64,000 nt of DNA from a virus. The position numbers were made by a program, and so were the translations under genes. The notes under the pieces were generated by a model. That model worked only from the letters and a program-made list of their open reading frames with translations, searched no databases and was not told the DNA's origin. Of this stretch, positions 49,075 through 64,000 are shown one piece after another (within the stretch, counting starts at the first letter, position 1; every line of letters starts with the position of its first letter). The stretch is taken from positions 1-64,000 of the IMG/VR virus record IMGVR_UViG_3300030085_004215; one strand, 5' to 3'.

Positions 49075-49570
49075 ATTAATATATATTAAGTTACATGAGG
49101 AAAATGTAATATTTTTTTACCTCGAAAGCGAGGTAAAAATAAAAGTGTTAATACTATGTTTACCTCATAGGTAGGGGGTGATAATAACTCGCTTAGGTAA
49201 AAAAAGCCACGCCAATATAAGCACGAGTTTGGCATTCTGACATATTGTCATACATTCACCGATTCACGATTAATAGCCCGGCGTGGCCATGTTCGGGTGT
49301 TGGGGTCATACCTGAACTACCTGATTGACCTAATGTTACACTTTTATTTTTTACTAACCCGTATTTCGTCATAACTGACTTTTTGTCATGATTGGTATTT
49401 TATTTTTTGTAAGGGTGACGAACTCCAAATCTGGAGTCACTTAAAGTATTACTTGAAGCCCACAGTTAAAGTAGTACTTGAGGTCTGACAATGTGTCATT
49501 ATATTTAATGTGGTTGGGTAAGTAATCCAAGTCAATTTCCCCAAAATGGACAAATAATAATAGACATAGC
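49075..49570. repeat. Non-coding junction with palindromic and direct repeats
   Basis: TGAC-N5-GTCA three times (49238, 49376, 49486), TTAAAGTA(T/G)TACTTGA twice (49441, 49466), hairpin at 49114-49139. Confidence 0.6.
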
Positions 49571-49619
49571 CACCTTAATTTACGAAAAAAATACTATACG
49601 AGTCAAGTGTTTTTTTTAA

Positions 49620-50288
49620 TTATTCTAAAGTTTTTTGAAATTCTTCGAATGGTATATACTCGACTTCAAGTTCTTCTTTAACCTCTACTTCAAGTGGTAC
49701 TTTAAGTGTTTCCTGAATATTGACATTCTCGTCATTCTTTATATGGATATCACGAGGTATGTGGTCATCAATCACACTCACTAATGGTACATCTCTGTGT
49801 CTATACCAACCTTTCATAGTGGTTTGTAGTTCATATACACAATTCAAACAAAGGACTCGTAGGTTCTCTAACTTGGTATTTAGGTGGTCTTTGTCTATAA
49901 AATCCAATAGTAAAGGGTAGGTATCATCAGTTATGTGTGTGAAATCACACGGACAATTACTACACTTTTGTTCTAAATAACCCTCTTTAAAACATTTTTT
50001 CAGTAACACGGTCTCCCTATAGGGTGAGGGATTTTCACCTTGTAATATTTTTTTTAGGTCATAAGGTGATATACGAGTACTATTCCGTTTCCTAATCCCC
50101 TTACTGGAGGGTAGTGGGTTCCATAACCCGTATTCCTTACAATATTTTTTAAAGGTAATATAACTCATATTTAGGTATTCACTGGCCATTCTCATAGATT
50201 GGGTGGACTCTATGGCCCACTTTATCTTGTTTTCGGTGGGTCTTTTACTCGGACGACCAACATTACTATTTTTTATACTAATACCCAT
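49620..50288 (-). CDS. HTH plus degenerate HNH-like protein
   Basis: N-terminal HTH-like SMRMASEYLNMSYITFKKY; CSNC...LDFIDKDHLN..LENLRVLCLNC. Confidence 0.55.
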   Translation of the reverse strand: MGISIKNSNVGRPSKRPTENKIKWAIESTQSMRMASEYLNMSYITFKKYCKEYGLWNPLPSSKGIRKRNSTRISPYDLKKILQGENPSPYRETVLLKKCFKEGYLEQKCSNCPCDFTHITDDTYPLLLDFIDKDHLNTKLENLRVLCLNCVYELQTTMKGWYRHRDVPLVSVIDDHIPRDIHIKNDENVNIQETLKVPLEVEVKEELEVEYIPFEEFQKTLE

Positions 50289-50581
50289 GATAAAAATCCT
50301 TAAAATAATACTTGACTTTTAGATATAAATGGACAATATATTTTCATATTTATATCATCTTTATTATTATACCTATCTATGATAATAACTATCCCGATAG
50401 GGTAAAAAGTGGGTAGAAGTGGTTAATAATGTATAAGAAATTCGGTACACTACCATTTTCAGAATATTTCCACGAAGTGGTCCTTCAGGAAAAGTTCATG
50501 TATTATATTTATTTATAAGTGGAAACTTCTTCAGTATCGGAACCGTATAATCTATATATTCATAATCATTAAAGGAAAAAA

Positions 50582-50914
50582 ATGGAAACAATTAAAGAAT
50601 TTATAAACGAATACTCTTGGTTATTAGTGACAGGAGTAGGGTTATTATTGTTTCAAAACACCATAACTGAGATAGTTGAGGGAATTATGATATTCTTAGG
50701 TAATGATTATAATGAGGATGATGTTGTCGAAGTGGATGGTTCTCCTGGTCGTATAGTACGAGTGGGAATGTGGAAAACCGTATTCTTTATATATCATATC
50801 GTAGATGGTAAAGTAGTAGGTGGTAGTAAATTAGTTGTCGTGAATTCTAAACTAAAGGATTTAAAAATAGAGAAACCCCTACCCAACTTGGATTTATCTA
50901 AGTATCAAAAATGA
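50582..50914 (+). CDS. Minimal MscS-like membrane protein
   Basis: TM helix followed by YNEDDVVEVDGSPGRIVRVGMWKT, resembling the MscS beta-domain. Confidence 0.5.
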   Translation: METIKEFINEYSWLLVTGVGLLLFQNTITEIVEGIMIFLGNDYNEDDVVEVDGSPGRIVRVGMWKTVFFIYHIVDGKVVGGSKLVVVNSKLKDLKIEKPLPNLDLSKYQK

Positions 50915-51254
50915 GGTCTTTCCTATACAAGATATTGTTTTATGAGATTAACTTGTTTAAACATAAGAACAAAACCCTTGATTATTTAAACTCCAGAAAA
51001 CCACTTCGTATTCGTATACAAGAATATAATCAACTCCATAATAAATAAAGATACCCCAATCCAATCAATATCAAAATCACCATTTTAAAATACTCATAAT
51101 ACTCGTCTTGTTTTGAAAATTGAACTGGTCGTTTCTTCTTCTCTACCTTATCCCAATCACCTAATCTACCCATAAAACCACCACATTGCAATTATCCAAC
51201 CTAATGGTATACCTATTGAGATACCCATTAAAATATACTCTATTCCATTATCAT

Positions 51255-51599
51255 TCATTTTCTTTTCACCTCTACATCCAACATTCGACATAAATCCATT
51301 GTGAGATTATTGTATTCGGGATATTTCACTAAGGTTTCTAACAACTTATCAACATACTCAATTGGGATTGTATCGAGTTCGGGATACTCTATCAACATCA
51401 TACTCACTTGTAGAAATGTATGGATGGCCTCCTCTACCTCTTTTGGATGGCCTGGTTGAACTCCCTTTTTACCCGATTGATAATCCTTCATTAATCGTTC
51501 AAAATGTTCACGAAGTTCTTTTTCGTTGGGTTTATCGTTACTCAACTTCTTCCTTATCCGTTGAGGTATCGTGAGTATTCCAATGATATTCACTTTCAT
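51255..51599 (-). CDS. Hypothetical protein
   Basis: ORF in the GpC-free zone; start uncertain. Confidence 0.45.
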   Translation of the reverse strand: MKVNIIGILTIPQRIRKKLSNDKPNEKELREHFERLMKDYQSGKKGVQPGHPKEVEEAIHTFLQVSMMLIEYPELDTIPIEYVDKLLETLVKYPEYNNLTMDLCRMLDVEVKRK

Positions 51600-51962
51600 A
51601 TTGAGGTGTTGAATTATATTCTTGTATTAATTGACCTCTCACTATACTTTCATCTTGTTCATTTAATTTAATATCTAAAAAATCCCAATCTATTGTGATA
51701 TTATCTTTAAGGTAGTCACGAATCATTTCGTATTTTTCTTTTAACTCTTCACTCATTATCTTTCCTATAACTTGGATTAACTCTTTTATTGAAATCCAAA
51801 GTGTGTTTATATTACTCTCTCTCAAGGTACTCTCCTTTCACGATTGACGATATTGATTTGGGTTGGTTCGTTAGAACCAATCCCATTAACTTATCGAGTC
51901 GTAACTTTGTTGGGTGATTCCACCTCTTATATATACATATATTTGTTTTGAAAAAATAGTCG

Positions 51963-53690
51963 TTACTTTGTTGTCAAATCGAATACTTTCATATTTTTCC
52001 ACCCATTTACTTTGGTGAGGTCTTTCTTATCAATAACCACTATTCTTTCCACACCTCTTACTTTGTAATGTGTATTACCATAATCTCTGATATTGGTTTT
52101 GAGTTTATTAAAATGGTTATCATTTTCTCCACCATGTACCCAAACCATAGTTCTGAAAGGTTTCATGTGGTCTGGAGTTTCCATCTGAATCCTGGCCAGA
52201 AATTCAGTATAGTGGTAATCATCCATTACATCTATCTGAAACTCTAACAAATCATATTTATCATTTTCATCCACTTGGTGAACCAAATCCAAATTATGTG
52301 GATACACTTTCTGTAAATCCTCTTTCCAACTACTATCTAATGTATCAACATTCCTGTCAAGTACTCTACCCATATTCAATAGTGTATTACTATGTAGTGG
52401 ATGAGTATCATCTTGTAGAATTTTTACAATTTCGGATACCTCATTCTTCTCTTGTGATGAATGTACGGTTCCTTTAGTTTTATGTTCCCAACCCATATCC
52501 AATACGAGTTTTCTCAAAAATGTTTTAATTTTCTCTTGAAATTTGGTATCACTAATCTTGGTCTTATCACGACCAGAGGGATTATCTGGAGATGAGGGTA
52601 GTATTTGGATAACTAATTTACGATAGTTATATCTTGAATCCCATGTACGAGTATGTTCACTATATAACCCAATTTCAAATAATCTAACCCTATTCGGTCC
52701 AAGTACATCAATGGTTGGGAAAGACCTATCTCCACCTTTGGAATCCCATAGAAATACATTATCCTCACCAACCCTATTCTTAAAATCCTCGAACTCGGCC
52801 GAGTTTTCAGGTGGTATCACATCCGTGTAATAAACTGATATATGATACTCCTTATCACCATCTTTAATTTTATGGAAATTACCTAAAACATCGTCCTCTT
52901 GGTTTACTGAGGGTATCATATCCTCAATAGTGGTAACAAGATTATCACCAAATACTGGTAAGTATAGTTTATTATTAGAACCAGTATTATCACCAATTTT
53001 GAAGTTTATACTAACATCAGTATTGTTGAATCTTCTACGAGTAAATTTTCTAATCTTGTAAAAATCAAAATTAAGACCTAAATCACTATATAGATTTATC
53101 TTATCGAAGAAACCAGTATATTCTCCACCTTGACCATGTAGTTTAAGAAAATCAACAAGACCAACAGAATAGAAATCTACTGAGATTCCTACACAATGAT
53201 TCATAAATTGTCTTTTAGAAATATTATGAATATCATCCTCTAAAAAATTCTGATTATCGAATTCATAATTAAATTTACCAATGATATAAGTATCACCAGA
53301 AATTTTGAAACCAACATAATCTCTAATCCCAATTTGATACATCCCTAATGAACCACCAATTCCGGCCAGGTCAATAGAGTAATCACTTGGTTTTTTCTTT
53401 TTACCAGTTTTTCTTCTGATAAAGTTACTTATCACAAAATTCATTCCAGAGTTTTCATCAACCACCTCTGGTCGTTTTGTTAATCCAACACCATTATCCG
53501 AATGGATAAATATATTATTATCAATATGGTTAAGAATCTTTCTTGATTCATAATCAAATGAGTTATCGTCTTGTTCGGCCGAGATATTCTCATCGGTGAA
53601 ATCGTTCTCCAATGGTTGGACAGTAATCCAACTATGTAAATCTTCACCAATATCATAACTACCGATTTTGTTTAATTTTGAAAAATCCAT
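51963..53690 (-). CDS. Hypothetical 575-aa protein, possible N-terminal GHKL-type ATPase
   Basis: QPLEN, SDNGVG and AGIGG resemble the GHKL N/G1/G2 boxes; own early-type promoter. Confidence 0.45.
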   Translation of the reverse strand: MDFSKLNKIGSYDIGEDLHSWITVQPLENDFTDENISAEQDDNSFDYESRKILNHIDNNIFIHSDNGVGLTKRPEVVDENSGMNFVISNFIRRKTGKKKKPSDYSIDLAGIGGSLGMYQIGIRDYVGFKISGDTYIIGKFNYEFDNQNFLEDDIHNISKRQFMNHCVGISVDFYSVGLVDFLKLHGQGGEYTGFFDKINLYSDLGLNFDFYKIRKFTRRRFNNTDVSINFKIGDNTGSNNKLYLPVFGDNLVTTIEDMIPSVNQEDDVLGNFHKIKDGDKEYHISVYYTDVIPPENSAEFEDFKNRVGEDNVFLWDSKGGDRSFPTIDVLGPNRVRLFEIGLYSEHTRTWDSRYNYRKLVIQILPSSPDNPSGRDKTKISDTKFQEKIKTFLRKLVLDMGWEHKTKGTVHSSQEKNEVSEIVKILQDDTHPLHSNTLLNMGRVLDRNVDTLDSSWKEDLQKVYPHNLDLVHQVDENDKYDLLEFQIDVMDDYHYTEFLARIQMETPDHMKPFRTMVWVHGGENDNHFNKLKTNIRDYGNTHYKVRGVERIVVIDKKDLTKVNGWKNMKVFDLTTK

Positions 53691-53754
53691 TTCTTAATTC
53701 CTTGTATTTTCTTTATTTATTATACCTAAATATACGAACAAAAACATATATGTG

Positions 53755-54210
53755 TCAAGAGTTTTTTTCATAAATTTTTATTTTATGGTACATTTTATTT
53801 AAGGCCTCTTTTTGTTTCGGTGTAACCCGACCATATCGTTTTACCCCTTTTAGAACACTAGTCAAAAAGGATAAACTACTATCTTTCCATTTATCAGTAC
53901 CATCGGCCTCTTTTACTAAAAACATCAACTTAGTTATTTTTTCTTCTATACTCTGTATCTTCTCAACTCGTTTTGGGTCGTCATTTTCTTTTCTCCATTT
54001 CACATAACCATCTATAATTTTTTGGATTGCCGATTCCATCTTAGGTGTTATAGTTCTACCACCACTAATTGCATTAGTCATACTATGGACAAATTCCTTG
54101 TAACCGTCATTCATATAGTAATCACCGTCTGAGATGATGTAACTCAGTTGTTGGTGTTGTTTTTTGAATTTGTCCATATTATCGACAATCCTATGAGGGA
54201 CTTTACTCAC
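53755..54210 (-). CDS. Hypothetical protein with two internal repeats
   Basis: FVHSM...GRTITPKM and FLTSV...GRVTPKQ repeats. Confidence 0.55.
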   Translation of the reverse strand: MSKVPHRIVDNMDKFKKQHQQLSYIISDGDYYMNDGYKEFVHSMTNAISGGRTITPKMESAIQKIIDGYVKWRKENDDPKRVEKIQSIEEKITKLMFLVKEADGTDKWKDSSLSFLTSVLKGVKRYGRVTPKQKEALNKMYHKIKIYEKNS

Positions 54211-54214
54211 TTAC

Positions 54215-54415
54215 TTAGAAATCCTCCAGGAGTTCATCAAGTTCACTATCCATTCCATCAAAATCATTGATGAATCCATCATTCAATGTATCGAACATCA
54301 CATTATCCATCTTCATATCGTCAAGTGACATTTTTTTGGTTCCATATCCAACATCTTTAGTAGATGTATGTTTTTTGAGTTTTTTTGGTTTATTGACCAT
54401 TTTGTTTTTCTTCAT
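54215..54415 (-). CDS. Small hypothetical protein (basic N-terminus, acidic C-terminus)
   Basis: Start moved to 54415, behind an AAGGA SD and the promoter at 54442-54471. Confidence 0.55.
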   Translation of the reverse strand: MKKNKMVNKPKKLKKHTSTKDVGYGTKKMSLDDMKMDNVMFDTLNDGFINDFDGMDSELDELLEDF

Positions 54416-54504
54416 TGTTTTTCCTTTATTTATCATGGTTAAATATACAAAACTTTTACTATATGTGTCAAGTGTTTTTTTCACTTTTTTAATTTTTTTT
54501 TTCG

Positions 54505-55023
54505 TAAGGAGTTGGTGGGAAGTACTCCGCCCTCCCACCATATGAGAATCAGAACTAACTACCGATATTAATTTCGCCACCTCGGTAGAGGGTGACCTTA
54601 AATCTTTCGATTGATGTCCGATGTGCTCTTCCGTTCCACCTCGGTAAAACATTTTCTACAAAGGGTCTGTGTTCCCTATAGAAGTAATCAAACCATGTAC
54701 CATCAATCTAAATCTTAGTGTTGGACTGGTTCTCCTCTTTATTCGCGAGTTCAAGGATATTCCGAGTTGTCCGTAGACTTTCATTTTAAGGTTCTCACAC
54801 CACTCAATCCCTACTCCTCTTTCGTGAACTGAGCCAACAAAATCTTTGGTGGTCTTTGTCTATGAGTTCCACCTTCTCTCATCTGCCTCATTATTCTTGA
54901 TTCTACCGAGGACTTTAGTAGAACCCCACATTCTTCTTACCCTATCCCGTCTTTACCCAATGTGGTAGGTGGGATTCAACAGGTTTTCATTAGTTCATCG
55001 GTTTATTTTCTCCTCATTTATCA
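54505..55023 (-). ncRNA. Candidate large structured non-coding RNA (~500 nt)
   Basis: Own promoter (55030-55059), no credible ORF, GC-richer than flanks, several helices and 5'/3' complementarity. Confidence 0.55.
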
Positions 55024-55225
55024 TACCTAAATATACGGCTTTTTTACTATATAAGTCAAGTACTTTTTTCATTTTTTTTCAATTTTTTTTTATCATTAAT
55101 ATCTAAATCTATTACACACCCTAAACAAATTTCTGGATAAAAAATCATTTTACCATCTAATGGACCAGAACAAACCTTACAAGTAATTTCTTCCAGTCCG
55201 ATAGTCATTAATGGTTTTTTCATTT

Positions 55226-55591
55226 TTAAAACAATTCTCCATTTACTTGGATTAAATCTTGTGTTAATGTACTTGGTTCATCAAAAGATGAAGTGATAAA
55301 TGGACCATCTTCATCTACATCTACATCCCATCCACACCCAACTCTGGCCATTACTTCGTCTACGATTTTATCCTCACCAAATGCAAGTTTATCAAACCAG
55401 TCGTACTTCATATCTAATACTGAAGTAGGATTACTGAAATCAATATCACCATTTTCTAAAATTTTAAAGACATTACCATTAATGGTATCAATTACAGAAT
55501 GGACTTGAAATAAAACTTTTATTTCACTTGTGTCACGATTGTTGTTTTCTAAATATGTTTCTAAGTTCATTATTTTTCCTTTATTTTTCAT
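55226..55591 (-). CDS. Hypothetical early protein
   Basis: Own early-type promoter and shared leader. Confidence 0.6.
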   Translation of the reverse strand: MKNKGKIMNLETYLENNNRDTSEIKVLFQVHSVIDTINGNVFKILENGDIDFSNPTSVLDMKYDWFDKLAFGEDKIVDEVMARVGCGWDVDVDEDGPFITSSFDEPSTLTQDLIQVNGELF

Positions 55592-55635
55592 ACCTTAATA
55601 TACAAAAGAAATACTATATAAGTCAAGTACTTTTT

Positions 55636-56016
55636 TTAATTTTTTTCAGAAAGTTTTGAAAAATATTCATCCTTACTGATACCCAGTCTACCATTAGTTT
55701 TTCTACCCCAAGTAAACTCACTCTTTAGTTTTTTGTTAGACAATACATTAACAAAAAACTCATTAGTTGGATTCTCACAAACAAACTCATAGTTTTTTAA
55801 GAATCTATCCACACCATTCATATCACTACTTTTTGTGAAATACATTCTTTCATATGGTAAATTTACAGTACTCATAGACAATTTGAAATTCTTGAAATAC
55901 TTATTGTACTCAACTCCGACATGTTGGATAGTACCACTTCTTTTATTTACCCAATAAGTGTAAGTACCTTCTTTTAGATGTTTTCTTGTATTCATTATTT
56001 TTTCCTTATTTTTCAT
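55636..56016 (-). CDS. Hypothetical early protein
   Basis: Own early-type promoter and shared leader. Confidence 0.6.
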   Translation of the reverse strand: MKNKEKIMNTRKHLKEGTYTYWVNKRSGTIQHVGVEYNKYFKNFKLSMSTVNLPYERMYFTKSSDMNGVDRFLKNYEFVCENPTNEFFVNVLSNKKLKSEFTWGRKTNGRLGISKDEYFSKLSEKN

Positions 56017-56068
56017 ACCTTAATATACTAAAGAAATAGTATATGTGTCAAGTGTTTTTTTCATTTTT

Positions 56069-56413
56069 TTATAAATAATTTGGACCCGTCCAACTATAAT
56101 AATCTTGGTTCTTATCAAAGATATTACCACGAGTATGTTTTGCTGCTGCATTATATCCTGCGGCCTTGAATACATCACCACACTTCATAGGTAGACCTTT
56201 ATGTTGTCCATCTACTTTTGCAACAAATCCCCAAACACGATTCCTCTCTACAATCTTGTCGAACTTACGACCTGGTTTTATGTCTAATTCTAAATCTCTG
56301 GCATGAGTATGTTTAGACCAGTTGTGATAACTCGTTTGAATACCTTTCAATAGGTTTTCAACACCTGTTTTGTAATCGTTTTTTGGTGGTAATGGTTTAA
56401 TTCCGTTAATCAT
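56069..56413 (-). CDS. Hypothetical early phage protein
   Basis: GRKFDKI...VWGFV...GDVFKAA...RGNI motif; own promoter and AGGAG SD. Confidence 0.65.
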   Translation of the reverse strand: MINGIKPLPPKNDYKTGVENLLKGIQTSYHNWSKHTHARDLELDIKPGRKFDKIVERNRVWGFVAKVDGQHKGLPMKCGDVFKAAGYNAAAKHTRGNIFDKNQDYYSWTGPNYL

Positions 56414-56517
56414 TATTTTCTCCTTATTTTTGATACCTTAATATACGAAGAAAATATAATACGAGTCAAGTACTTTTTTTATATTTTTTGAAGTTTTTTA
56501 ATGAATGGAATAAAACT

Positions 56518-56802
56518 TTATTTGTATAACATTTCCCATAGGTTTTTCAGAAAAAGTGATAGAAAACCAACTCCGATGACACCTCTCCATTTTGTCGTAT
56601 TTTCTCTGAATTGAGTATTCTGTTTTGTCTCTGCCCATAATCCCTCGTGTGGATTAAATAGATTCTCCTTCAAAAACCTTAATGATTCATCTGTCCTACC
56701 ATGTGCCATGGACATTTCGTGTTTCAACTCATCAAGTTTTTTTTCAATTGAATCAATCTTATTATGGACTAAATCAAATTCTTTTCTATCGGCTTGGTTC
56801 AC
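56518..56802 (-). CDS. Coiled-coil protein with C-terminal TM helix
   Basis: Heptad pattern and a hydrophobic C-terminus. Confidence 0.5.
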   Translation of the reverse strand: MNQADRKEFDLVHNKIDSIEKKLDELKHEMSMAHGRTDESLRFLKENLFNPHEGLWAETKQNTQFRENTTKWRGVIGVGFLSLFLKNLWEMLYK

Positions 56803-57603
56803 CTTAACATACCCCTATGTTTAGTTGATAATAAATACTGTATATATTAATTTCTGTACTTTCTTGGAGTTGGTTTTTTTGGTTTATATCCACTTTCTAA
56901 AACTTTTTTATCTTCAATCAAGTTATCAATCAATCTGTTCTTTCTTTCCATAGATTTTATAGTGAATAAACCCATTGACAAACCACCCATTATTACTCCA
57001 ATAATAATACCACAAAAAAATGCCAACCAAATAGGATTAATCATTTTGTCTTTGATGTTCGTATAACACTAATACATACATTAAAACACATCCCATTGCG
57101 ATTAGTCCTACTGGAACCACATTAAGATATATTATTAAAATTGCCTCACTAATCGTCATCTGTTTCCTCGTTGGTTAAATACTCAGAATCTTGATGTACC
57201 ACAATGACACTTCCACTTTCTTCACTTGGATTATCTTCATAATCTTTACGAAGTTCTATGGCCTCTTTTTCAATCTCTATCGAAAGGTTTTCAAGTTCTT
57301 TTAATTGTTCTTGTGTTAAAATTGGTTCTTTACTCATCCTAATAACCTATCTTCATCATCAACTATATCTTTATCTTCTTTCCACCATTCTACCTGTCTA
57401 TTCTGTAATGATGACCTCAATCCTAAATCAAAATCATTTTCAGTCTGTACTTTCCATAATTTATCAAATTCACTTTCATCTATCTGTTTTCGTTTAACAA
57501 AATAGGTTTTTGCACCCGATATACCAACATCATCCGATAAATCAACTTTATCAATTATCTCATCAAATTTATTAACTAATAAATACTTCAACTCAAACTC
57601 CTT

Positions 57604-58140
57604 TTATTCAAGGACGATACCAATCATATCCCAACTCTCTCTATTGTATTGTGCACCGACCCATAGTGTATCACCAATCATATTTTGGACTGGTGCAATC
57701 ATATTTACAACCTCACCATCATCACTATAACTGGCATAATTACTCGTTCTAACTTCATGACCAACAAAATGTGTTATATAAGTGGTATCATAACCGACCC
57801 ATTGTACTTCATCACTTAACCCACCATGAACATAATAACCCATAGTATCACCAACATGCCAATATAGATTACTTTCGAAATACACTTTCCATCTATCAAC
57901 TGCCCCATCTTGGTCTGTTAAGAACCCCTCTAACCTATGTAATGTTTGCCATTTAAATCTATTGATTGTAAGATGATATAATCCGTTATCATCTTGTGGT
58001 AAACCCACTGTCCAAACAAATTCAAATTCTCGTTCCTCCTCATAGTGTTTATCTTCACACCCTATGAATATGAATAGACTAACGAGAACTATTCTTTTTA
58101 TTAATCTTGAATGTCTTTGAATCTTTTTTACTAAATTCAT
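57604..58140 (-). CDS. Putative lipoprotein
   Basis: IVLVSLFIFIGC lipobox-like signal. Confidence 0.55.
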   Translation of the reverse strand: MNLVKKIQRHSRLIKRIVLVSLFIFIGCEDKHYEEEREFEFVWTVGLPQDDNGLYHLTINRFKWQTLHRLEGFLTDQDGAVDRWKVYFESNLYWHVGDTMGYYVHGGLSDEVQWVGYDTTYITHFVGHEVRTSNYASYSDDGEVVNMIAPVQNMIGDTLWVGAQYNRESWDMIGIVLE

Positions 58141-58498
58141 TGTAACTCTTCCTTTTCTTTTTTGGTTTTTTCTTTGTTTGGATTGTTTCTCTGAAGGCCT
58201 CTTCTTCGAGTTCTTCCCAATCCAAATTGTTATGAAATTTACTCATTTACAACTCCTTAATATAACACCAAAAATACATACGAGTCAACGCTTTTTTACT
58301 CTTAATTTCTCTATGAAACTTAAAAACTCTTCTATACTATAAGTAGTACCCTGGTCATCGAAAATACTAAAATTTTCTAATGATTCTGGTTGGTTGTGAA
58401 TCAGATTGTGTAGTGCAAGCATACCATCTCCTGCATACCAAGTTCCTAAACTCTCTTCACCTAAAATATTAGAATCAAACATTAAATTTTCTTTAGAT

Positions 58499-59764
58499 TC
58501 ATTTTTCCCTAATATGAAAAACGTCATTTACCATCCCCTCTTCAAGTGGTTTCACTCTTCTAATTTCAACATCAAATATATCTATCTCAAATCTTCCTTC
58601 TTCACCCGAATCAGAGAGTATATTTGATAAATTTTCAATAATATCTCTACTATAGTTCGTTATTCTATCACAATCAAATCTTAAAATAATATCATTATCT
58701 ACTTCCGAATGATGTGTCTTGATTTTTTTTGATAAATCGTACAATGTATTCTGTTGTTCTGAACTTATGTATTTATTTACACCATAACCTTTATGTCCAA
58801 CCCAATCTCCATAAATTGTGGTACACCACGGTTCTAAATATTCTAAATTCTGTAAATTACAATTCTCTACCACAAAACCTATATCATATACTTTAGGTAT
58901 GACTGGATGTAACCATTCATCATGAGTTATTATTGCACCCCATTTTCTAATAAAGTTTCGTGTACTCCGTTGGTTCTGAGCCAACCACTCCGATGATTCT
59001 CTACCCTTCATAAAAACTTGACCTGCAGGATTTCTAATTGCACCATCTTTGAATCTACTACCTCTACAAGTCATATGATACACAAACCCTTTCCAAGTCT
59101 GTATCAACTCGTATCCTGCCAAAAGAAATCTGTTGAATATATCAGAGTCCTCTTTGGATTGTGGTGCAAATAGTGGGTCATGTCCACCAACAAAATCCCA
59201 ATCCTTTTTCATTATGGCCCATGGTGCAAATATTCCTTTTGAAATCTCTTGATTGAGAGATAATGGCCCGTATAACAAACCATCCTTACCAGTTTGGATA
59301 TCATCAACAAACTTTAATAATTCAGTTTCTTTAAACTCCTCTGGTTCTATTCCGAAATCTTCTAATATTTTTTCTTTACCATCTGGATGTAATGGTGGTT
59401 CTATTCTTGTTAGTGATACGACAGTTCCATCTTTAATAAGTTTATCTATCTGTACATCTGAATTAGGACAGAGATACATATCTGCATGAAATATCATAAC
59501 TATATCATTACTTGAATACTCATTTATTAATGTATCATATAGAATAGTATGTCCTAATCTTTCTGGACCTGGATTGACATGTAATCTAACCTTTTTATCA
59601 GTTTTCATAATTTCCTCAACCCACTCAACTGTCCCATCTGTACTTGCATCACTTGCAATACAAATCTCGTGTTCTATAGATTGGTTCCTACGAATACTAT
59701 TATATGCCTGTTTTAAATATTTTAAGTTATTCCTACTTGGTAATATAAAACTTATAGGTCTCAT
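58499..59764 (-). CDS. Glycosyltransferase family 2
   Basis: ISFILPSRN, DASTDGT, HAD (DxD-like), EDSDIF.R, VYH. Confidence 0.85.
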   Translation of the reverse strand: MRPISFILPSRNNLKYLKQAYNSIRRNQSIEHEICIASDASTDGTVEWVEEIMKTDKKVRLHVNPGPERLGHTILYDTLINEYSSNDIVMIFHADMYLCPNSDVQIDKLIKDGTVVSLTRIEPPLHPDGKEKILEDFGIEPEEFKETELLKFVDDIQTGKDGLLYGPLSLNQEISKGIFAPWAIMKKDWDFVGGHDPLFAPQSKEDSDIFNRFLLAGYELIQTWKGFVYHMTCRGSRFKDGAIRNPAGQVFMKGRESSEWLAQNQRSTRNFIRKWGAIITHDEWLHPVIPKVYDIGFVVENCNLQNLEYLEPWCTTIYGDWVGHKGYGVNKYISSEQQNTLYDLSKKIKTHHSEVDNDIILRFDCDRITNYSRDIIENLSNILSDSGEEGRFEIDIFDVEIRRVKPLEEGMVNDVFHIREK

Positions 59765-60672
59765 TTATTTGTCAACTCCCAATGTTCTTTCCATTTTTCT
59801 TCTGTATAGTTTTGTTCAAATCTCTTAAGTGTCGTATCACTACACAAATCCCAAAATTTTTGTGACCTTAGTTTTCTTGCAACTTCTTTGGCCCCTTCTA
59901 AATCACCAACCTCGACTGTAGTTAGTGGATGTAATATTTCTTGTGTATCCAATCCTTTGTATCCAATACAAGGTGTTCCATGAAACCCACAGTTCATGGC
60001 AAATGTACCAGCAGCATGTGTCCTCATCAGATGAACACCTATACTAAAACCACCTAATGTATCTAACCAATCTCTCCAATTCATATAAGGTAGGTAATCT
60101 ATATCCTCAATGGCATCTTCTTGGTCTTGTTTTCTACCCATCGAGGGTGCCGACATAGGATATCCTATCTCTCTTGCCACTATGTAAGAATCAAAACCAC
60201 CATACCAACTAACAAAGTTACCACCAATCATTATACTGTTACTCCATCCAAACTCTCTTCTATTAAATCCATCAGTAATCATCAAACTTCTCATCACTCT
60301 TACATCCTTACAACCTAAACCAAGATAGTAATTCACATCACTTTCATTGTGACAATATACCCAATCTGCATCTGTTATCGTATTATAGTATTTGAATTGA
60401 TTTTCAATGGTGTAATCTTGAAAATACCAATGTGGTCCTTCCTGCATTACTGCAACTTTATCACAACATTCTCTGTATGTATTTAAATCTACATTAGGAT
60501 TTGTTTTTGGTATTATAACAATACCCAAATCAAACTTTTCACTCGGTATGTTGTTTATATTATAATGTGGTGCATCTAATGCCATCATCCAACCATATTC
60601 AGTTCTGGCATTGGGAAAATCTCTTGGTATTTTACCTTCTATTTGACTTTCTGAAAAAAATACAACCTTCAT
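59761..60672 (-). CDS. Glycosyltransferase-like protein (GT-B C-terminal domain)
   Basis: YLPYMNW...GTFAMNCGFHGTPCIG pattern; located in the glycan locus. Confidence 0.5.
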   Translation of the reverse strand: MKVVFFSESQIEGKIPRDFPNARTEYGWMMALDAPHYNINNIPSEKFDLGIVIIPKTNPNVDLNTYRECCDKVAVMQEGPHWYFQDYTIENQFKYYNTITDADWVYCHNESDVNYYLGLGCKDVRVMRSLMITDGFNRREFGWSNSIMIGGNFVSWYGGFDSYIVAREIGYPMSAPSMGRKQDQEDAIEDIDYLPYMNWRDWLDTLGGFSIGVHLMRTHAAGTFAMNCGFHGTPCIGYKGLDTQEILHPLTTVEVGDLEGAKEVARKLRSQKFWDLCSDTTLKRFEQNYTEEKWKEHWELTNK

Positions 60673-61340
60673 TTTATCTCTGATATTGTAACAAAATTTA
60701 ATTTATATTGTGATAATAAATATTCTAAAACCTGTTCAAAATGTAGAAAATTTTCTTCATTCCACACATTTTGATTGTGTGTTCCATTGATATGTGATTG
60801 AAACATAAATGTATTTCCATATAAACTTAATGAATCTGGTTCATTAATACCATCACACCCCTCAAAAAAATTACATCCCCATTTTATTCCTTGATTTATT
60901 TCACTATGTCCTGCAACCCACTCAAAATTACCACTAATTGCATCTGCACTTTGTTGGTTCACTCCCCAACCTGGTGCCCTAAATCCATTTGGTTTGTAAC
61001 CACACTTCTCCCACAAGTTTAAACTTTCTTGAACCCGTTCCATTGCAAGACCATAACTTAATTCGTAAAACTCCATCTCACCCAAGTTTTCGGTTTTACA
61101 TGCATGATAATGACCATGATTACTCATTTCAATCCAATCATATTGTTTCCAAAAATCCACAAACTCTTTTGTGATTGGATACTTACCATGATAATTACTC
61201 GGAATAAATAAATTAAATTTTACTCCATAATTGTGGTGTAGATTTTCAAGATATTGTATTTGGACATCACCCTCAACACCCCACTCTTTTTCTGGATGTA
61301 CATCATCAATTGCCACAACTACATTTGTTTCCATTACCAA
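60669..61340 (-). CDS. Polysaccharide deacetylase-like protein (NodB fold)
   Basis: IDDVHP, NHGHYH, GFRAPGW. Confidence 0.75.
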   Translation of the reverse strand: MVMETNVVVAIDDVHPEKEWGVEGDVQIQYLENLHHNYGVKFNLFIPSNYHGKYPITKEFVDFWKQYDWIEMSNHGHYHACKTENLGEMEFYELSYGLAMERVQESLNLWEKCGYKPNGFRAPGWGVNQQSADAISGNFEWVAGHSEINQGIKWGCNFFEGCDGINEPDSLSLYGNTFMFQSHINGTHNQNVWNEENFLHFEQVLEYLLSQYKLNFVTISEIK

Positions 61341-61732
61341 CTCACTTCCCAGTCCTCAAATTCAGCAGCAATACAATCTATCTTGTAGTCCTTACGTCCT
61401 TCTCCAACCTGGTCTTGTATCACATTCTTTGCAGTATTTCTAATACCATTTAATCCGTGAGTTAAACCAAGATTACCATCACCTTCCCCTGCTCGATATG
61501 AAGACTCATTATACCATATATGTGTATTCATCTGTGCCAATACTATAATTGCCCTAATCATCTCACCTGTAGGTTTTTCCCAATTCAGTAACATATCTAA
61601 ATCATGAACTATATCCTTGATTTCTTTTGCATACTCTTCTTTATGTTCTGGTATCTTTACCTCTTTTAATTGTATTATTGATAACCTGTCAATTAACTCT
61701 GAAATCGTTGGTAAATATTTTCTATCTGCCAT
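61334..61732 (-). CDS. Hypothetical helical protein of the glycan locus
   Basis: ISELIDRLSIIQLK...NTHIW..E..R motif. Confidence 0.55.
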   Translation of the reverse strand: MADRKYLPTISELIDRLSIIQLKEVKIPEHKEEYAKEIKDIVHDLDMLLNWEKPTGEMIRAIIVLAQMNTHIWYNESSYRAGEGDGNLGLTHGLNGIRNTAKNVIQDQVGEGRKDYKIDCIAAEFEDWEVSW

Positions 61733-62534
61733 CTAATTGTTCCTTATATTTTTTAATACCTATTAATGGGTCTGTTGGTGTCCAATTAGGTAAAAAAGTA
61801 TGTGTTGCAGCACAAGTATAATCTTGATACCCAATTGGTTTTTGATTCACATTTGTAAAATGATATGGTACATCTAACACATCACATATATCATTATATG
61901 ATGTTGGTTTACCAGTACCTACATCGTAAATACCACTTATATTACCATTAATTGTTGTATATTCTTTCATTGCAAGTATACATGCATCAACTACATCCTC
62001 AACCCAAATAAAATCTCTTTGTGGTGATTTATGTTCATTACCATCTTGTGGAAATATTCCAAAATTATCTGATTTATATATTTGATATGGTATTGATGAC
62101 ATTAAACCTTTATGTTCCTCTCCGATTCCATATGTATTGAAAAATCTCAATGATATAAATTTATCACCTAATAATGACATACCAAGTTTTTCTGCACAAT
62201 ATTTTGACCAAGAATATGAATTAGTAGGACCAGAACTCCTTACAAGAGAACCACCATATCCATAAATTGCAGAACTACTTGCAAACACCACCCTCTTATC
62301 GTATTTTTTTGCAAATTCAAACACCACTCTACTACGAACAAAATTATGATAAAACATATTATTAATATCGGGTTCTCTTAAATCTGCACAGGCACCTATA
62401 TGAAAAATACCATCACACTCCTTGAAGGCATTTTCATCATAATTATCATCAATACCAAACCCAATATATTCATCGAACCTATTTGCAAGATTTTTTCCTA
62501 TGAACCCTTTGTGACCAGTAATTATGTAACTCAT
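61722..62534 (-). CDS. NAD-dependent sugar epimerase (HldD/RfaD-like)
   Basis: ITGHKGFIG, IFHIGA, ASSSAIYG, YSWSK, LRFFNTYG, RDFIWVED, YQDYTCA. Confidence 0.85.
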   Translation of the reverse strand: MSYIITGHKGFIGKNLANRFDEYIGFGIDDNYDENAFKECDGIFHIGACADLREPDINNMFYHNFVRSRVVFEFAKKYDKRVVFASSSAIYGYGGSLVRSSGPTNSYSWSKYCAEKLGMSLLGDKFISLRFFNTYGIGEEHKGLMSSIPYQIYKSDNFGIFPQDGNEHKSPQRDFIWVEDVVDACILAMKEYTTINGNISGIYDVGTGKPTSYNDICDVLDVPYHFTNVNQKPIGYQDYTCAATHTFLPNWTPTDPLIGIKKYKEQLDGR

Positions 62535-63526
62535 TTTTTTGCCTCTTTTAGAAAATCTTCATAAGTAAAAAATTTAGATTGATTGTTGAGTAACTTTGCC
62601 TCATTGTGTTTAGACATCTGAGATATAATATCCCACCAATTTCCCTTTTTATCAACATAACCTCGTTGATTAGTTTCATCCTTAATATATAATCGTTTTC
62701 TTGGGTGTCGTCTGTTGTGTACTCTCAAAATATTTTTAACAACAAATTGTACATAAGAATCACCAAGAACTAATTTTGCCATTCTACCAAAACTTGTATC
62801 CTCTGCACACATCAATAACGAATGTGGTATATTAACACCAGATTTTATAACATCCGATTTAATTACAAGACAACTACCATCAAACTTTGGGTAATCTATA
62901 ATTTTAATATCTAACTCATCACCCATCTCATTAATTTCGTTCATCCTATCAATAGTCATATAGGCTTTTTCTGATGCCTCATGGTTATCTGTCCACTCTT
63001 GTTTATCCACATACTCAACATCTTCAAAATATGGATGTTCTAAAACTTTCCAAGAATCATCCCAATTTTTTCTGTATCCGAATGTAAGTACATATCTGTT
63101 GATATTGTTTTGTTTAGCATACTCATCAACACTTTCTATGGTCGTTAGTGTTTCTTTTGGGAATAGACTATCTGTCTCACCCCATAAAACAAAATCAACA
63201 TCCTCACAATAATTGTGATTCAAATCTCTTCTGTAACCTGGTATGTTATAGATTGGGTCATCGTTGGTTTTTGTAGTTACATTTACTTTATATCCTGCAC
63301 TTTCCAACCGTCTTGTCTTGTTAAAAAAACTTACAAATATTTTCTTTTCATCACCATCTATTCTTTCTAAATATTCAGAGATATTCCAAGTGAAATCAAA
63401 TATAATGTTTTCCTTATTTTCTACTCCATCACAAAAATTTAAACATGATTGAATATATTCATCAACCATTTCTATTTCGTAAAACATTACATGACAACCA
63501 ACCACATATTTATTTTTCAATAACAT
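62531..63526 (-). CDS. Glycosyltransferase-like protein (GT-A)
   Basis: WGETD (DxD-like) and EDTSF motifs; located in the glycan locus. Confidence 0.5.
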   Translation of the reverse strand: MLLKNKYVVGCHVMFYEIEMVDEYIQSCLNFCDGVENKENIIFDFTWNISEYLERIDGDEKKIFVSFFNKTRRLESAGYKVNVTTKTNDDPIYNIPGYRRDLNHNYCEDVDFVLWGETDSLFPKETLTTIESVDEYAKQNNINRYVLTFGYRKNWDDSWKVLEHPYFEDVEYVDKQEWTDNHEASEKAYMTIDRMNEINEMGDELDIKIIDYPKFDGSCLVIKSDVIKSGVNIPHSLLMCAEDTSFGRMAKLVLGDSYVQFVVKNILRVHNRRHPRKRLYIKDETNQRGYVDKKGNWWDIISQMSKHNEAKLLNNQSKFFTYEDFLKEAKK

Positions 63527-64000
63527 AATTATCCTTTATTGTATTCCACACATTTTTCATCAAATCATTTCTTTGTGTTTTATCAAACCCATTAAAATGC
63601 CAAACCCAACCTGTCTCAAAAAGTAGGTTTCCTTGTAGTACACCTCTCATATGTAGTTGTGAGAGATTGAACTTATCACTTAAAAATTTCAATTCATAAT
63701 CACTTGCACGAATCATATAATTTATAGGAGTTTGGTCTGAACCCTTTTTCAATGTATTATGTTGTCGGTTTCTGAGTTCATCTTCATTCTCGTAATAGAA
63801 ATCAGTAACAGTTTTACAAAACTCCTTATGTTTTTTATTCATAACAATGAACCCACAATTAAAATATGTAGTCCAATCAAATTTTACATCGGGCCAGAAA
63901 TCTTGATAACCTTTTATACTATTATGACTCCATTCTATGAAAAATTTATCTTGAACTGCACCAAACTCACCACCTGCCTCATCAAAGAAATTAGGACAAT
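63510..64000 (-). CDS. Glycosyltransferase family 8-like protein, C-terminal part (starts beyond the right edge)
   Basis: The frame stays open to the edge: YFNCGFIVMN...DQTPINY...WHFNG. Confidence 0.7.
   Translation of the reverse strand, partial: CPNFFDEAGGEFGAVQDKFFIEWSHNSIKGYQDFWPDVKFDWTTYFNCGFIVMNKKHKEFCKTVTDFYYENEDELRNRQHNTLKKGSDQTPINYMIRASDYELKFLSDKFNLSQLHMRGVLQGNLLFETGWVWHFNGFDKTQRNDLMKNVWNTIKDNYVIEK

What the first reader, a model, noticed from the sequence alone, without database searches (positions are those of the whole stretch)
49571..54028. 4.5-kb zone almost free of GpC except GGCC, with near-Ala-free proteins
Seen (manual scan): in this interval I found GpC only about 11 times, 10 in GGCC and one in TGCA (~51188), whereas base composition would give on the order of 100. 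CpG remains common. The proteins reflect this: 0 Ala in the 110-aa ORF, 2 in 222 aa and 4 in 575 aa, each coded within GGCC. The depletion covers genes on both strands and intergenic DNA, and starts sharply at the junction; the carbamoyltransferase just to the left is GpC-rich. Inference: this is the first-injected end, purged of GC-core sites because a host system targeting GpC-containing motifs acts before phage protection is expressed, while GGCC is tolerated because it is already modified. Selection strong enough to remove an amino acid suggests an unusual defence/counter-defence system, possibly tied to the modification operon at 19.6-24.2 kb.
Basis: partly seen in the sequence, partly recalled or inferred. 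Interest (0 to 1): 0.9.

Follow-up and report, generated by a model that had tools for sequence, protein, structure and literature searches.

The report
Phage DNA segment cleared of GC-words
A marine phage has removed almost every G-C step not followed by C from 4.5 kb of its DNA, at the cost of nearly all alanine in the proteins encoded there, which suggests that an unidentified enzyme reads a three-letter DNA word on this part of the genome.

Summary
Window 49571-54028 holds 11 GpC against 112 expected: 10 in GGCC and 1 in TGCA.

The rule is better described as a word of three bases. GCD/HGC (GCA, GCG, GCT) is absent on both strands, in all reading frames, in intergenic DNA and in promoter spacers. 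GGCC is the only NGCN word that carries no GCD on either strand, so no special GGCC methylation is needed to explain why it survives.

The zone is the extreme end of a one-sided gradient. AGC/GCT is normal to the left, falls to 0 at 49.57 kb, and climbs back over about 70 kb to the right (Spearman 0.89).

Orthologues in two related phage contigs are not cleared, or less so. They show Ala changed to Ser, Val, Gly or Asp, and the conserved Ala recoded to G|GCC. This is selection in place, not deamination, a mis-join or foreign DNA.

A 44-kb related phage contig obeys the same word rule (GCT and GCG only) over 33.7 kb that end in the same syntenic region.

Best reading (about 0.4): avoidance of a nuclease-like reader of a short word on the genome segment that is exposed first.

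This scan has noted similar GAC/GTC-free blocks in freshwater phages (unchecked AI notes).

The parts
49571..54028 (.). Core zone: no GCA, GCG or GCT (= TGC, CGC, AGC) on either strand except one TGCA at 51187-51190. It holds 10 GGCC against 2.8 expected.
54029..64000 (.). Outer segment, which runs on beyond the window's end to about 67.7 kb of the contig. GCT/AGC and GCG/CGC are still avoided (27 vs 134.7 and 9 vs 32.3 over 54029-68000, at the rate of the rest of the genome). GCA/TGC recovers by about 58 kb and GCC/GGC is normal. AGCT is absent from 48021 to 67690 of the contig.
49075..49576 (.). Non-coding, repeat-rich block directly left of the sharp edge. Its GpC is ordinary (11 vs 15.4 in 49075-49570). 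It is the candidate anchor: packaging start, DNA end, origin, or a promoter-driven RNA.
49577..49617 (-). Copy of the phage's sigma-70-like early promoter (TTGACT, 18-nt spacer, TAAATT). It fires leftward into the non-coding block. The last GCD word to the left (49568/49569) lies just downstream of it.
49620..50288 (-). HNH (homing-type) endonuclease, 222 aa, 2 Ala. The orthologue in the related contig (63% identical) has 7 Ala and 17 GpC.
50312..50340 (+). Promoter-like site on the + strand upstream of the only + strand gene.
   Evidence: (I3); read by eye, weak
50582..50914 (+). 110-aa protein with 0 Ala and a weak match to the MS-channel beta domain. No other + strand gene appeared in the ORF lists of the 120-kb contig (>=250 aa for the whole contig; >=100 aa in 17-28 kb; >=50 aa in 47-57 kb).
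51255..51825 (-). Two small overlapping ORFs (114 aa and 95 aa) with no family match. This stretch is replaced in a variant strain.
51963..53690 (-). 575-aa protein with the GHKL ATPase fold (Hsp90/MORC/GyrB/MutL-like), 4 Ala. The orthologue in L004 (73% identical) has 19 Ala.
53729..53768 (-). Early promoter copy whose spacer has lost the AGCC that most copies left of the zone carry.
53755..54210 (-). 151-aa protein (phrog_4046) that straddles the right edge of the zone. The first GCA returns at 54028/54029.

Best explanation
The zone is the most strongly cleared part of a genome segment from which selection has removed the double-stranded DNA word G-C-(not C). The strength of avoidance is graded: GCT about equal to GCG, then GCA, with GCC spared. 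I read this as avoidance of a nuclease-like activity that recognises only three bases, each site being costly enough to be removed even at the price of changing proteins. The activity matters only for a segment anchored at the non-coding block at 49.1-49.57 kb, most likely because this is the DNA that lies unprotected in the cell first. That would be either a fixed leading end or the region next to a packaging start, from which successive headfuls place virion ends progressively further to the right. The small genes with early promoters in and beside the zone would then supply the protection for the rest of the genome.

Shown here: the word rule, its symmetry on both strands, the one-sided gradient, its origin in place by selection, and its presence in a relative.

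Inferred: The phage carries a thymidylate-synthase-fold gene and a carbamoyltransferase, a pair described for 5-carbamoyloxymethyl-cytosine DNA. If every C is modified, 'not followed by C' simply means 'not followed by another modified base'. This guess is untested.
For: Word rule. In the zone AGC/GCT is 0 vs 43.0, CGC/GCG 0 vs 10.3 and GCA/TGC 2 vs 82.4 (the 2 being the single TGCA counted on both strands), but GCC/GGC is 20 vs 23.2, all expected at the rate of the rest of the genome. No k-mer class without GC comes close to the 0.07-0.40 ratios of the GC-containing words; the lowest is CACG/CGTG at 0.60. At 58-64 kb every NGCN class that holds GCT or GCG on either strand has o/e 0-0.25, while GGCA/TGCC is 1.33, GGCC 1.51 and TGCA 2.19.

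DNA level, both strands. On the sense strand GCT is 0 vs 21.3 and AGC 0 vs 21.6; in the outer segment they are 13 vs 66.9 and 14 vs 67.8. Sense [ACT]GCC is 0 vs 5.9. Intergenic GpC is 1 vs 16.7. Codon-boundary G|C is 0 vs 27.2. AGCC or GGCC stands in the spacer of 6 of 9 early-promoter copies left of the zone, but in only 1 of 7 copies between 49.58 and 56.44 kb (one doubtful regex hit at 24429 left out).

Selection in place. The L004 orthologue of the 575-aa gene (75.5% nt identity) has 19 Ala and 21 GpC. In the window these GpC became TC 7, GC 4, GT 3, GA 2, GG 2 and others 3, and the 4 Ala that were kept are all GCC. The HNH orthologue has 17 GpC and 7 Ala against 2 and 2 in the window.

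Polarity. AGC/GCT o/e in 2-kb bins rises from 0 to 0.97 over 70 kb to the right (Spearman 0.89, P 9e-13, 35 bins). There is no trend to the left (0.28, P 0.18). Ala content runs 0.9% in the zone, then 2.0, 3.5, 3.5 and 4.8% further right, against 4.5% left of the edge.

Relative. In contig G001:C3 a 33.7-kb block that ends in the same syntenic region has AGC/GCT 55 vs 529 (0.10). All classes with GCT or GCG are at 0.02-0.29, GGCA/TGCC 1.11, GGCC 1.14 and TGCA 1.84.

Setting. Six early promoters lie between 53.7 and 56.5 kb, each driving small genes, and the island is hypervariable among relatives.

Precedents. Restriction motifs matter only in the leading injected region of Murciavirus phages (PMC12455610, abstract read). 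In T5, EcoRI sites count only in first-step-transfer DNA (bioRxiv 10.1101/866236, passages read). A TS homologue together with a carbamoyltransferase gives 5cmdC (PMC8670742, sections 11 and 12 read).
Against: No DNA end was mapped. All 4 runs laid were contigs, and no place where molecules begin or end was reported. Contig depth in run X3 is even across the edge (7.2-10.9), so the zone is not part of a long terminal repeat.

The large terminase of Mel-JY01, the nearest cultured relative, is closest to T4-type gp17 (25-31% identity). Phages of that type usually package by headful with permuted ends (recalled). In Mel-JY01 the terminase gene lies more than 100 kb from the syntenic HNH region, unlike classic pac sites.

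Genes left of the edge (19-49 kb) have the same early promoter class but are not cleared, so early transcription alone is not the cause.

In the relative the cleared block has two sharp edges rather than a gradient, and it covers core replication genes. The edge in the relative falls before its HNH gene, not after it.

No nuclease with this specificity is identified in phage or host. Cytosine modification is only inferred: the TS-fold protein is very divergent, and the paper reports that only 17 of 62 carbamoyltransferases lay on modified contigs.

Earlier notes of this scan describe several word-free blocks in a single phage, which cannot all be leading ends (unchecked).
Confidence: 0.4

Rival explanations
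1. Priming-free segment. GCD is the start word of the phage's (or the host's) primase, and the segment is kept free of lagging-strand primer starts on both strands, for example to leave long single-stranded DNA for recombination-dependent replication or for exchange.
For: Primase start sites are three-base words with a loosely read 3' base: T7 uses GTC, T4 uses GTT and GCT (recalled, from no call). The graded third base (T, G > A >> C) and the symmetry on both strands fit this. Earlier notes of this scan report GAC/GTC-free blocks in T4-like phages (unchecked). The phage has RecA, gp32-like and DnaB-like genes.
Against: No benefit is known that would justify removing every site and an amino acid. 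No primase gene is present in this incomplete contig. The phage needs priming sites somewhere, yet the relative clears 33.7 kb that include its polymerase gene.
Confidence: 0.12
2. Exchange filter. The island is a cassette that moves between related phages, and DNA lacking the word survives the recipient's or a competitor's nuclease during co-infection. Word-free alleles therefore spread.
For: In three runs from three studies a variant strain carries the 575-aa gene with 6-8 differences in 1839 bp, while its flanks differ by 4-18% and 50.9-51.85 kb is replaced (table 8). An HNH homing-type gene sits at the edge. The island is hypervariable among relatives.
Against: The clearing extends over core, syntenic genes (sugar genes here; polymerase and clamp loader in the relative). 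It also covers the conserved HNH gene and a promoter copy, so it follows position and not the origin of the gene.
Confidence: 0.12
3. Self-avoidance. The phage's own early nuclease, made to destroy host DNA, cuts at GCD, and the DNA present in the cell while it acts must lack the word. This is the hypothesis proposed for the A1 protein of T5.
For: A preprint on T5 argues that first-step-transfer DNA lacks the sites of the phage's own host-degrading nuclease (10.1101/866236, passages read). Chlorella viruses use enzymes that read 2-4 bases to degrade host DNA (recalled). An HNH nuclease gene lies inside the zone. The clearing is specific to this lineage.
Against: The HNH protein matches homing-endonuclease families, which read long sites. 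The relative has the same HNH family but does not clear GCA. This reading still needs stepwise entry or some other reason for the regional limit.
Confidence: 0.1
4. PAM clearing. GCD is the protospacer-adjacent motif of a host CRISPR system, and the segment that is targetable early is kept free of usable protospacers.
For: PAMs are 2-3 bases, are read on double-stranded DNA on either strand, and have graded tolerance (recalled). In T5 only the first-step-transfer region is sensitive to CRISPR (10.1101/866236, passage read).
Against: Selection per site would be weak, so complete removal at the cost of Ala is hard to explain. No such PAM is known to me and no host spacers were examined.
Confidence: 0.04
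5. RNA level. An mRNA endoribonuclease that cuts at GCU/GCA (MqsR type) selects against the word in early transcripts.
For: The order GCU first, then GCA, recalls what is reported for MqsR (recalled, from no call).
Against: The antisense words are avoided equally: sense AGC is 0 vs 21.6, sense [ACT]GCC 0 vs 5.9, and the outer segment gives 13 vs 66.9 and 14 vs 67.8. Intergenic DNA and promoter spacers are cleared too.
Confidence: 0.02
6. Mutational bias (a cytosine deaminase acting at GpC), or an artefact such as a mis-joined contig or an insert from a GpC-poor donor.
For: The edge is sharp and the composition unusual.
Against: Only 3 GT and 1 AC were found among the 21 aligned GpC of the 575-aa gene, of which 17 were lost, and 3 GT and 1 AC among the 17 aligned GpC of HNH, of which 15 were lost. 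The main change is G to T (Ala to Ser). The junction is bridged by contigs of independent studies: X16 record 13, X12 record 9 and X3 record 18. 20 runs from 10 studies hold the stretch. The zone's genes are syntenic with uncleared orthologues.
Confidence: 0.03

Closest known systems
First-step-transfer (pre-early) DNA of phage T5/BF23
   Same: A contiguous segment with host-type promoters and small takeover genes. Restriction sites count inside the segment but not in the rest of the genome (bioRxiv 10.1101/866236, passages read). Next to it lies a repeat-rich non-coding region.
   Different: In T5 the avoided sites are ordinary 6-bp words, the segment is a mapped end inside a long terminal repeat, and proteins are not depleted of an amino acid. 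Here the word has 3 bases, no end is mapped, depth shows no repeat, and the effect fades over tens of kb.
Leading (first-injected) region of Murciavirus (Autographiviridae) and type I R-M
   Same: Absence of a motif from the leading region alone decides escape, and that region is variable and rich in anti-defence genes (PMC12455610, abstract read).
   Different: That is a bipartite type I motif with a few sites. This is a 3-base word with about 100 expected sites removed.
Virus enzymes that read very short words (chlorella virus Nt.CviPII at CCD, CviJI at RGCY, M.CviPI at GpC)
   Same: Recognition of 2-4 bases with a degenerate 3' base (D) and graded site preference (recalled, from no call).
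   Different: No homologue was looked for or found here. Those enzymes belong to algal viruses, and their own DNA is protected by methylation rather than by loss of sites.
Modification-dependent (type IV) restriction such as McrBC (R-mC)
   Same: A recognition element of two bases that includes a modified cytosine. It attacks phages that replace C (recalled). The phage has a TS-fold gene and a carbamoyltransferase, the pair described for 5cmdC (PMC8670742, sections 11 and 12 read).
   Different: Neither modification of this phage's DNA nor such an enzyme in its host has been shown. ApC is not avoided (AC o/e 0.98), so it is not the R-mC rule.
Word-free gene blocks noted earlier in this scan (GAC/GTC-free blocks in large freshwater T4-like phages)
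   Same: A three-base word cleared from a block of small genes on both strands at a cost to proteins, and shared by relatives (AI notes, unchecked).
   Different: A different word (GWC), other phages and habitat. Some of those genomes are said to have several blocks.

Membership tests
Restriction-motif avoidance confined to the first-entering DNA (T5 FST, Murciavirus leading region) | The motif is absent from one contiguous segment but present in the rest of the genome | tested here: met
   0 AGC/GCT between 49569 and 54624, against about 10 per kb at 1-48 kb and 92-120 kb.
Restriction-motif avoidance confined to the first-entering DNA (T5 FST, Murciavirus leading region) | The segment is the physical end that enters the cell first | not testable with these tools
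   Only Logan contigs were available, and no pile-up of starts or ends was reported. The contig is incomplete. The T4-type terminase in a relative argues against fixed ends.
Restriction-motif avoidance confined to the first-entering DNA (T5 FST, Murciavirus leading region) | The segment holds early promoters and small takeover or anti-defence genes | tested here: inconclusive
   Promoters are present and the genes are small with no known family. No anti-defence function is shown, and the same promoters also occur outside the segment.
Restriction-motif avoidance confined to the first-entering DNA (T5 FST, Murciavirus leading region) | The avoided motif is the site of a known R-M system of the host | not testable with these tools
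   The host is uncultured (probably Marinimicrobia), and a 3-base word fits no R-M type known to me.
Type IV (modification-dependent) restriction target | The virion DNA carries modified cytosine | not testable with these tools
   Inferred only from the TS-fold gene and the carbamoyltransferase, together with PMC8670742. No PDB or phage match was found from which the substrate residue could be read.
Cytosine-deaminase or mutational depletion | Lost GpC became GpT or ApC | tested here: not met
   3 GT and 1 AC among 21 aligned GpC, of which 17 were lost; 3 GT and 1 AC among 17 aligned GpC, of which 15 were lost.
mRNA-interferase (MqsR-like) site avoidance | Avoidance on the transcribed strand only | tested here: not met
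   the sense and antisense words are equally absent.
Primase start-site word | A three-base word with a loosely read 3' base, used by the phage primase | not testable with these tools
   The pattern is compatible, but there is no primase gene in the contig and no biochemistry.
GHKL ATPases (Hsp90/MORC/MutL/GyrB), for the 575-aa protein | Bergerat ATP-binding fold followed by a transducer-like domain | tested here: met
   The model has pLDDT 80.3. Foldseek against the PDB gives Hsp90 at E 1e-10 and MORC3 with rmsd 6.7 over 456 columns. N35, E39, D42, N43, G112 and S114 are invariant in 9 homologues; the motif names are recalled.
GHKL ATPases (Hsp90/MORC/MutL/GyrB), for the 575-aa protein | Match to a curated HATPase family profile | tested here: not met
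   0 families in Pfam, PHROGs, PADLOC and NCBIfam and 0 PDB sequence matches.

The most novel reading that the evidence does not exclude
An undescribed DNA-reading activity with a specificity of only three bases (G-C-not C), perhaps one that senses hypermodified cytosine, acts on a defined 5-55-kb segment of large marine phages. Judging by this scan's unchecked notes on GAC/GTC-free blocks, it may have counterparts with other words in freshwater T4-like phages. Phages answer by deleting the word from that segment, down to removing alanine from the proteins encoded there.
Probability: 0.35. Interest if true: 0.9.

Novelty: new variant of a known kind. Interest (0 to 1): 0.8.

Why it matters
Site avoidance in phages is known for restriction sites of 4-8 bp. 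A word of three bases occurs about every 25-40 bp in this genome, so removing it forces changes in proteins: Ala falls from 4.5% to 0.9%. That implies strong, lasting selection for each site.

It might read modified cytosine.

If the anchor is a packaging start or a DNA end, the gradient would offer a way to read entry polarity directly from sequence in uncultured phages.

The phage is common in marine metagenomes (20 runs from 10 studies hold the stretch) and probably infects Marinimicrobia (SAR406). I know of no cultured phage for that group (recalled; not searched).

Tried and rejected
Relatives of the zone. The zone DNA and the 575-aa protein found nothing useful in the phage collection. 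IMG/VR held no close relative of the 575-aa, HNH or 151-aa proteins, and a family alignment was too divergent to scan with. One metagenome scan gave one locus, L004. Among 33 IMG/VR loci with a carbamoyltransferase homologue, none has a GCD-free run longer than 652 bp. The core zone is therefore unique among the sequences I could reach.

Mel-JY01 (190 kb) has no such zone. Its AGC/GCT is evenly low (o/e 0.29-0.69) across the genome.

Contig ends as a hint of a DNA end. 17 of 33 IMG/VR contigs stop inside the carbamoyltransferase gene or within 2.8 kb upstream of it, and 0 of 33 stop within 3 kb downstream (my count). However, the stops fall in the hypervariable island and not at the non-coding block, so strain diversity explains them just as well. 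I do not count them as evidence.

In one search the joint 49624>55053 and the 'goes back' joint have sides of only 27-31 letters and lie on the repeated promoter element. I read them as repeat effects. The loose ends at 49571 have the same cause.

Rfam found only the tmRNA and two tRNAs in the window. The structure of the 49.1-49.57 kb block was not studied.

The substrate residue of the TS-fold protein could not be read: there was no PDB match and only one distant phage match.

Literature searches for a GpC or three-base-word clearing in phages found nothing relevant, and no paper on Mel-JY01 was found. Supplementary files of the papers were not opened.

A translation-level cause (shortage of tRNA-Ala; the phage carries tRNA-Ala and tRNA-Cys) is rejected, because out-of-frame and intergenic GpC are cleared as well.

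Full report
OBSERVATION

Window 49571-54028 (4458 bp) has 11 GpC where base composition predicts 112.4. Ten are in GGCC and one is in TGCA at 51188. CpG is 82 (o/e 0.73). In 1-kb windows GpC o/e is 0.04-0.19 inside the zone; it is 0.34-1.2 left of the zone and beyond 59 kb, and stays low (0.17-0.52) at 54-59 kb. The window is the first 64 kb of a single 120,405-bp virus contig. Over that whole contig the two longest runs without a non-GGCC GpC are 2841 and 1619 bp. They are adjacent and together form the zone; the next longest is 759 bp and lies just to the right. The carbamoyltransferase to the left is ordinary in GpC, not rich.

WHAT THE RULE IS

Counting all k-mers, with a word and its reverse complement pooled, against the rate in the rest of the genome, the classes with ratios of 0.07-0.40 all hold GC; the lowest class without GC, CACG/CGTG, is at 0.60.
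- Zone: AGC/GCT 0 vs 43.0, CGC/GCG 0 vs 10.3, GCA/TGC 2 vs 82.4 (the single TGCA counted on both strands), but GCC/GGC 20 vs 23.2.

The avoided word is therefore GC followed by A, G or T (equivalently, GC preceded by A, C or T on the other strand). GGCC is the only NGCN tetramer that carries this word on neither strand.

To the right the rule relaxes according to the third base. At 58-64 kb every NGCN class that holds GCT or GCG on either strand has o/e 0-0.25, while GGCA/TGCC is 1.33, GGCC 1.51 and TGCA 2.19. A methylated-GGCC explanation does not predict that TGCA and GGCA/TGCC are tolerated there. A three-base rule with graded strength (T about equal to G, then A, with C spared) does.

IT ACTS ON DOUBLE-STRANDED DNA
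- On the sense strand GCT is 0 vs 21.3 and AGC 0 vs 21.6. In the outer segment they are 13 vs 66.9 and 14 vs 67.8.
- Sense [ACT]GCC, which carries the word only on the antisense strand, is 0 vs 5.9.
- The 834 bp of intergenic DNA in the zone have 1 GpC vs 16.7.
- Codon boundaries G|C are 0 vs 27.2. AGC, TGC and CGC codons are 0, and GGC is used once in 69 Gly codons.
- The phage's early promoter element (TTGAC, about 18 nt, TATATT, on the - strand) carries AGCC or GGCC in its spacer in 6 of 9 copies left of the zone, but in only 1 of 7 copies between 49.58 and 56.44 kb (one doubtful regex hit at 24429 left out).

IT AROSE IN PLACE BY SELECTION

A metagenome contig (L004, 3624 bp) carries an orthologue of the 575-aa gene (73% aa, 75.5% nt identity) in the same order behind the orthologue of the 151-aa gene. 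Its GpC o/e is 0.57. It has 19 Ala against 4 in the window. Of its 21 aligned GpC, the window has TC 7, GC 4, GT 3, GA 2, GG 2, CT 1, AC 1 and AT 1. The four Ala that were kept are all written GCC, three of them recoded from GCT or GCA.

The HNH gene shows the same pattern against its orthologue (63% aa identity) in a related phage contig: 17 GpC and 7 Ala against 2 and 2.

Transitions of the deamination type are a minority, so a mutational cause is rejected. Other members of the 575-aa family have 1.7-5.0% Ala against 0.7% here.

IT IS NOT AN ASSEMBLY ARTEFACT

20 runs from 10 studies hold the stretch or part of it. In the 4 runs laid, from 4 studies, contigs bridge the left edge: X16 record 13, X12 record 9 and X3 record 18. 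Depth in X3 is even across the edge (7.2-10.9), so the zone is not part of a long terminal repeat.

ONE-SIDED GRADIENT

AGC/GCT sites number about 10 per kb up to 49568. There are none until 54625, then about 1.6 per kb to 67.6 kb, about 5 per kb to 92 kb and about 10 per kb beyond. In 2-kb bins normalised for composition, o/e rises from 0 to 0.97 over 70 kb to the right (Spearman 0.89, P 9e-13, 35 bins). There is no trend to the left. GCA/TGC recovers by about 58 kb. AGCT is absent from 48021 to 67690.

Ala content follows the same course: 4.5% (1-49.5 kb), 0.9% (zone), 2.0% (54-58 kb), 3.5% (58-92 kb), 4.8% (92-120 kb). GCT makes up 29%, 0%, 0%, 10%, 18% and 37% of Ala codons in 1-49.5 kb, the zone, 54-58, 58-68, 68-92 and 92-120 kb.

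The sharp edge lies at the transcription start of a promoter copy (49577-49617) that fires into a 500-bp non-coding, repeat-rich block.

RELATIVES

The phage is a distant relative of Microcystis phage Mel-JY01 and Flavobacterium phage immuto (40-48% aa identity) and is syntenic with Mel-JY01. The contig lacks terminase, capsid, sheath and primase homologues and is therefore incomplete. Mel-JY01 has no such zone.

A 44,136-bp contig binned in a 'Flavobacteriales' MAG (G001:C3) is in fact a closer related phage. It is syntenic from the ribonucleotide reductase to the tRNA beyond the carbamoyltransferase. In it a 33.7-kb block, running from the promoter in front of the polymerase gene to the island before HNH, has AGC/GCT 55 vs 529 (0.10) and CGC/GCG 0.18. 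The tetramers split in the same way: classes with GCT or GCG at 0.02-0.29, GGCA/TGCC 1.11, GGCC 1.14, TGCA 1.84. Its flanks have AGC/GCT at 0.61. It does not clear GCA, it lacks the 575-aa gene, and its HNH gene lies outside the cleared block.

Among 33 IMG/VR loci with carbamoyltransferase homologues, AGC/GCT o/e ranges from 0.20 to 1.17. One lineage (L100-L102) shows a step at the same junction (0.45 upstream, 1.13 downstream), and none has a GCD-free run longer than 652 bp. The word rule is thus a trait of a phage group, with strength and extent that vary by lineage. The window's phage shows the extreme form.

GENES
- The zone holds an HNH homing-type endonuclease.
- It holds the one + strand gene I found (110 aa).
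- It holds two small ORFs with no family match.
- It holds a 575-aa protein whose model (pLDDT 80.3) has the GHKL ATPase fold (Hsp90, MORC3, GyrB, MutL), although no profile library recognises it.
- In a variant strain seen in three studies, this gene differs at 6-8 of 1839 positions while its flanks differ by 4-18%. That suggests recent exchange.
- Left of the edge lie a carbamoyltransferase and an NT5C-type nucleotidase.
- At 19.6-24.2 kb lie a TS-fold protein, an AsnB-like amidotransferase and a protein with a partial N6/N4 methylase domain.
- Yang et al. (PMC8670742, sections 11 and 12 read) showed that a phage carbamoyltransferase paired with a TS homologue makes 5-carbamoyloxymethyl-cytosine, with no sequence preference.

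INTERPRETATION

Complete removal of about 100 expected sites, at a cost to proteins, calls for a strong penalty per site. That points to cutting rather than to a mild effect on expression. The restriction to one segment with a sharp anchor and a one-sided decay points to a positional cause.

The known analogues are T5 first-step-transfer DNA (10.1101/866236, passages read) and the leading region of Murciavirus phages (PMC12455610, abstract read). A packaging start at the non-coding block, followed by a rightward series of headfuls, would also give a sharp edge and a slow decay, and would fit a T4-type terminase.

Against this: no end is mapped; the terminase of a relative is of the T4 type and lies far from the syntenic region; the relative's block has two sharp edges; and genes with the same early promoters left of the edge are not cleared.

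I therefore hold the exposure-order reading at about 0.4. The rivals are a priming-free segment, an exchange filter, self-avoidance of a phage nuclease, and PAM clearing.

My preferred guess, untested, is an enzyme that depends on modified cytosine. In fully C-modified DNA, 'not followed by C' means 'not followed by another modified base'.

CONTEXT IN THIS SCAN

Earlier AI notes report GAC/GTC-free blocks of small genes in large freshwater T4-like phages. I did not check them. They suggest that word-free blocks are a wider phenomenon, and that explanations other than a single leading end must be kept open.

Noticed in passing
G000:C1 105267-108056 (locus L003 1267-4056, - strand): The phage carries a 929-aa TonB-dependent receptor gene (Plug plus CarboxypepD_reg domains). 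Of the 80 best loci in bacterial genomes, 56 carry Marinimicrobia, Neomarinimicrobiota or Fidelibacterota titles (51-66% identity; my count from the listing). The host is therefore probably SAR406/Marinimicrobia.
   Followed up: partly
G001:C3 (loci L091-L093), 44,136 bp: A contig binned in a 'Flavobacteriales' MAG is a related phage. It is syntenic with the window's genome from about 109 kb down to about 40 kb and carries its own 33.7-kb GCT/GCG-poor block.
   Followed up: yes
window 49075-49617: An early promoter copy fires into a 500-bp repeat-rich block that has no ORF. It could be a non-coding RNA, an R-loop type origin or a packaging site. Rfam finds nothing there at gathering thresholds.
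   Followed up: partly
window 51853-53691: In a variant strain seen in runs from three studies, the GHKL-fold gene is about 99.6% identical while its flanks differ by 4-18% and 50.9-51.85 kb is replaced. This suggests a recent exchange or sweep of this gene.
   Followed up: partly
window 24845-25248, 31096-31170, 40345-40418: The phage has a tmRNA (tag GDSQPSYAYAA by ARAGORN) and exactly two tRNAs, Ala(TGC) and Cys(GCA). Both read codons that contain GC.
   Followed up: no
window 19557 to 56480, plus 85832 and 105167 in the contig: A highly conserved early promoter element (A-run, CTTGAC, about 18 nt, TATATT, then an AAGGA leader) occurs 17 times on the - strand. Nearly all genes of the 120-kb contig are on that strand.
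   Followed up: partly
PP395634.1 (loci L005-L008): Microcystis phage Mel-JY01 has AGC/GCT evenly low (o/e 0.29-0.69) and CGC/GCG mostly high (about 1.5) over its whole genome, with no regional block.
   Followed up: partly
L111 (IMGVR_UViG_3300029448_006778): This relative has AGC/GCT at o/e 0.2 and CGC/GCG at 0.05-0.17 on both sides of its carbamoyltransferase gene. It may avoid the word genome-wide.
   Followed up: no
loci L094-L126: 17 of 33 IMG/VR contigs end inside the carbamoyltransferase gene or within 2.8 kb upstream of it, and none ends within 3 kb downstream. Assemblies tend to break at the hypervariable island.
   Followed up: partly
window 16957-17790 and 26585-27565: The phage encodes a glycosyl hydrolase family 6 protein and a UvdE UV-endonuclease.
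   Followed up: no
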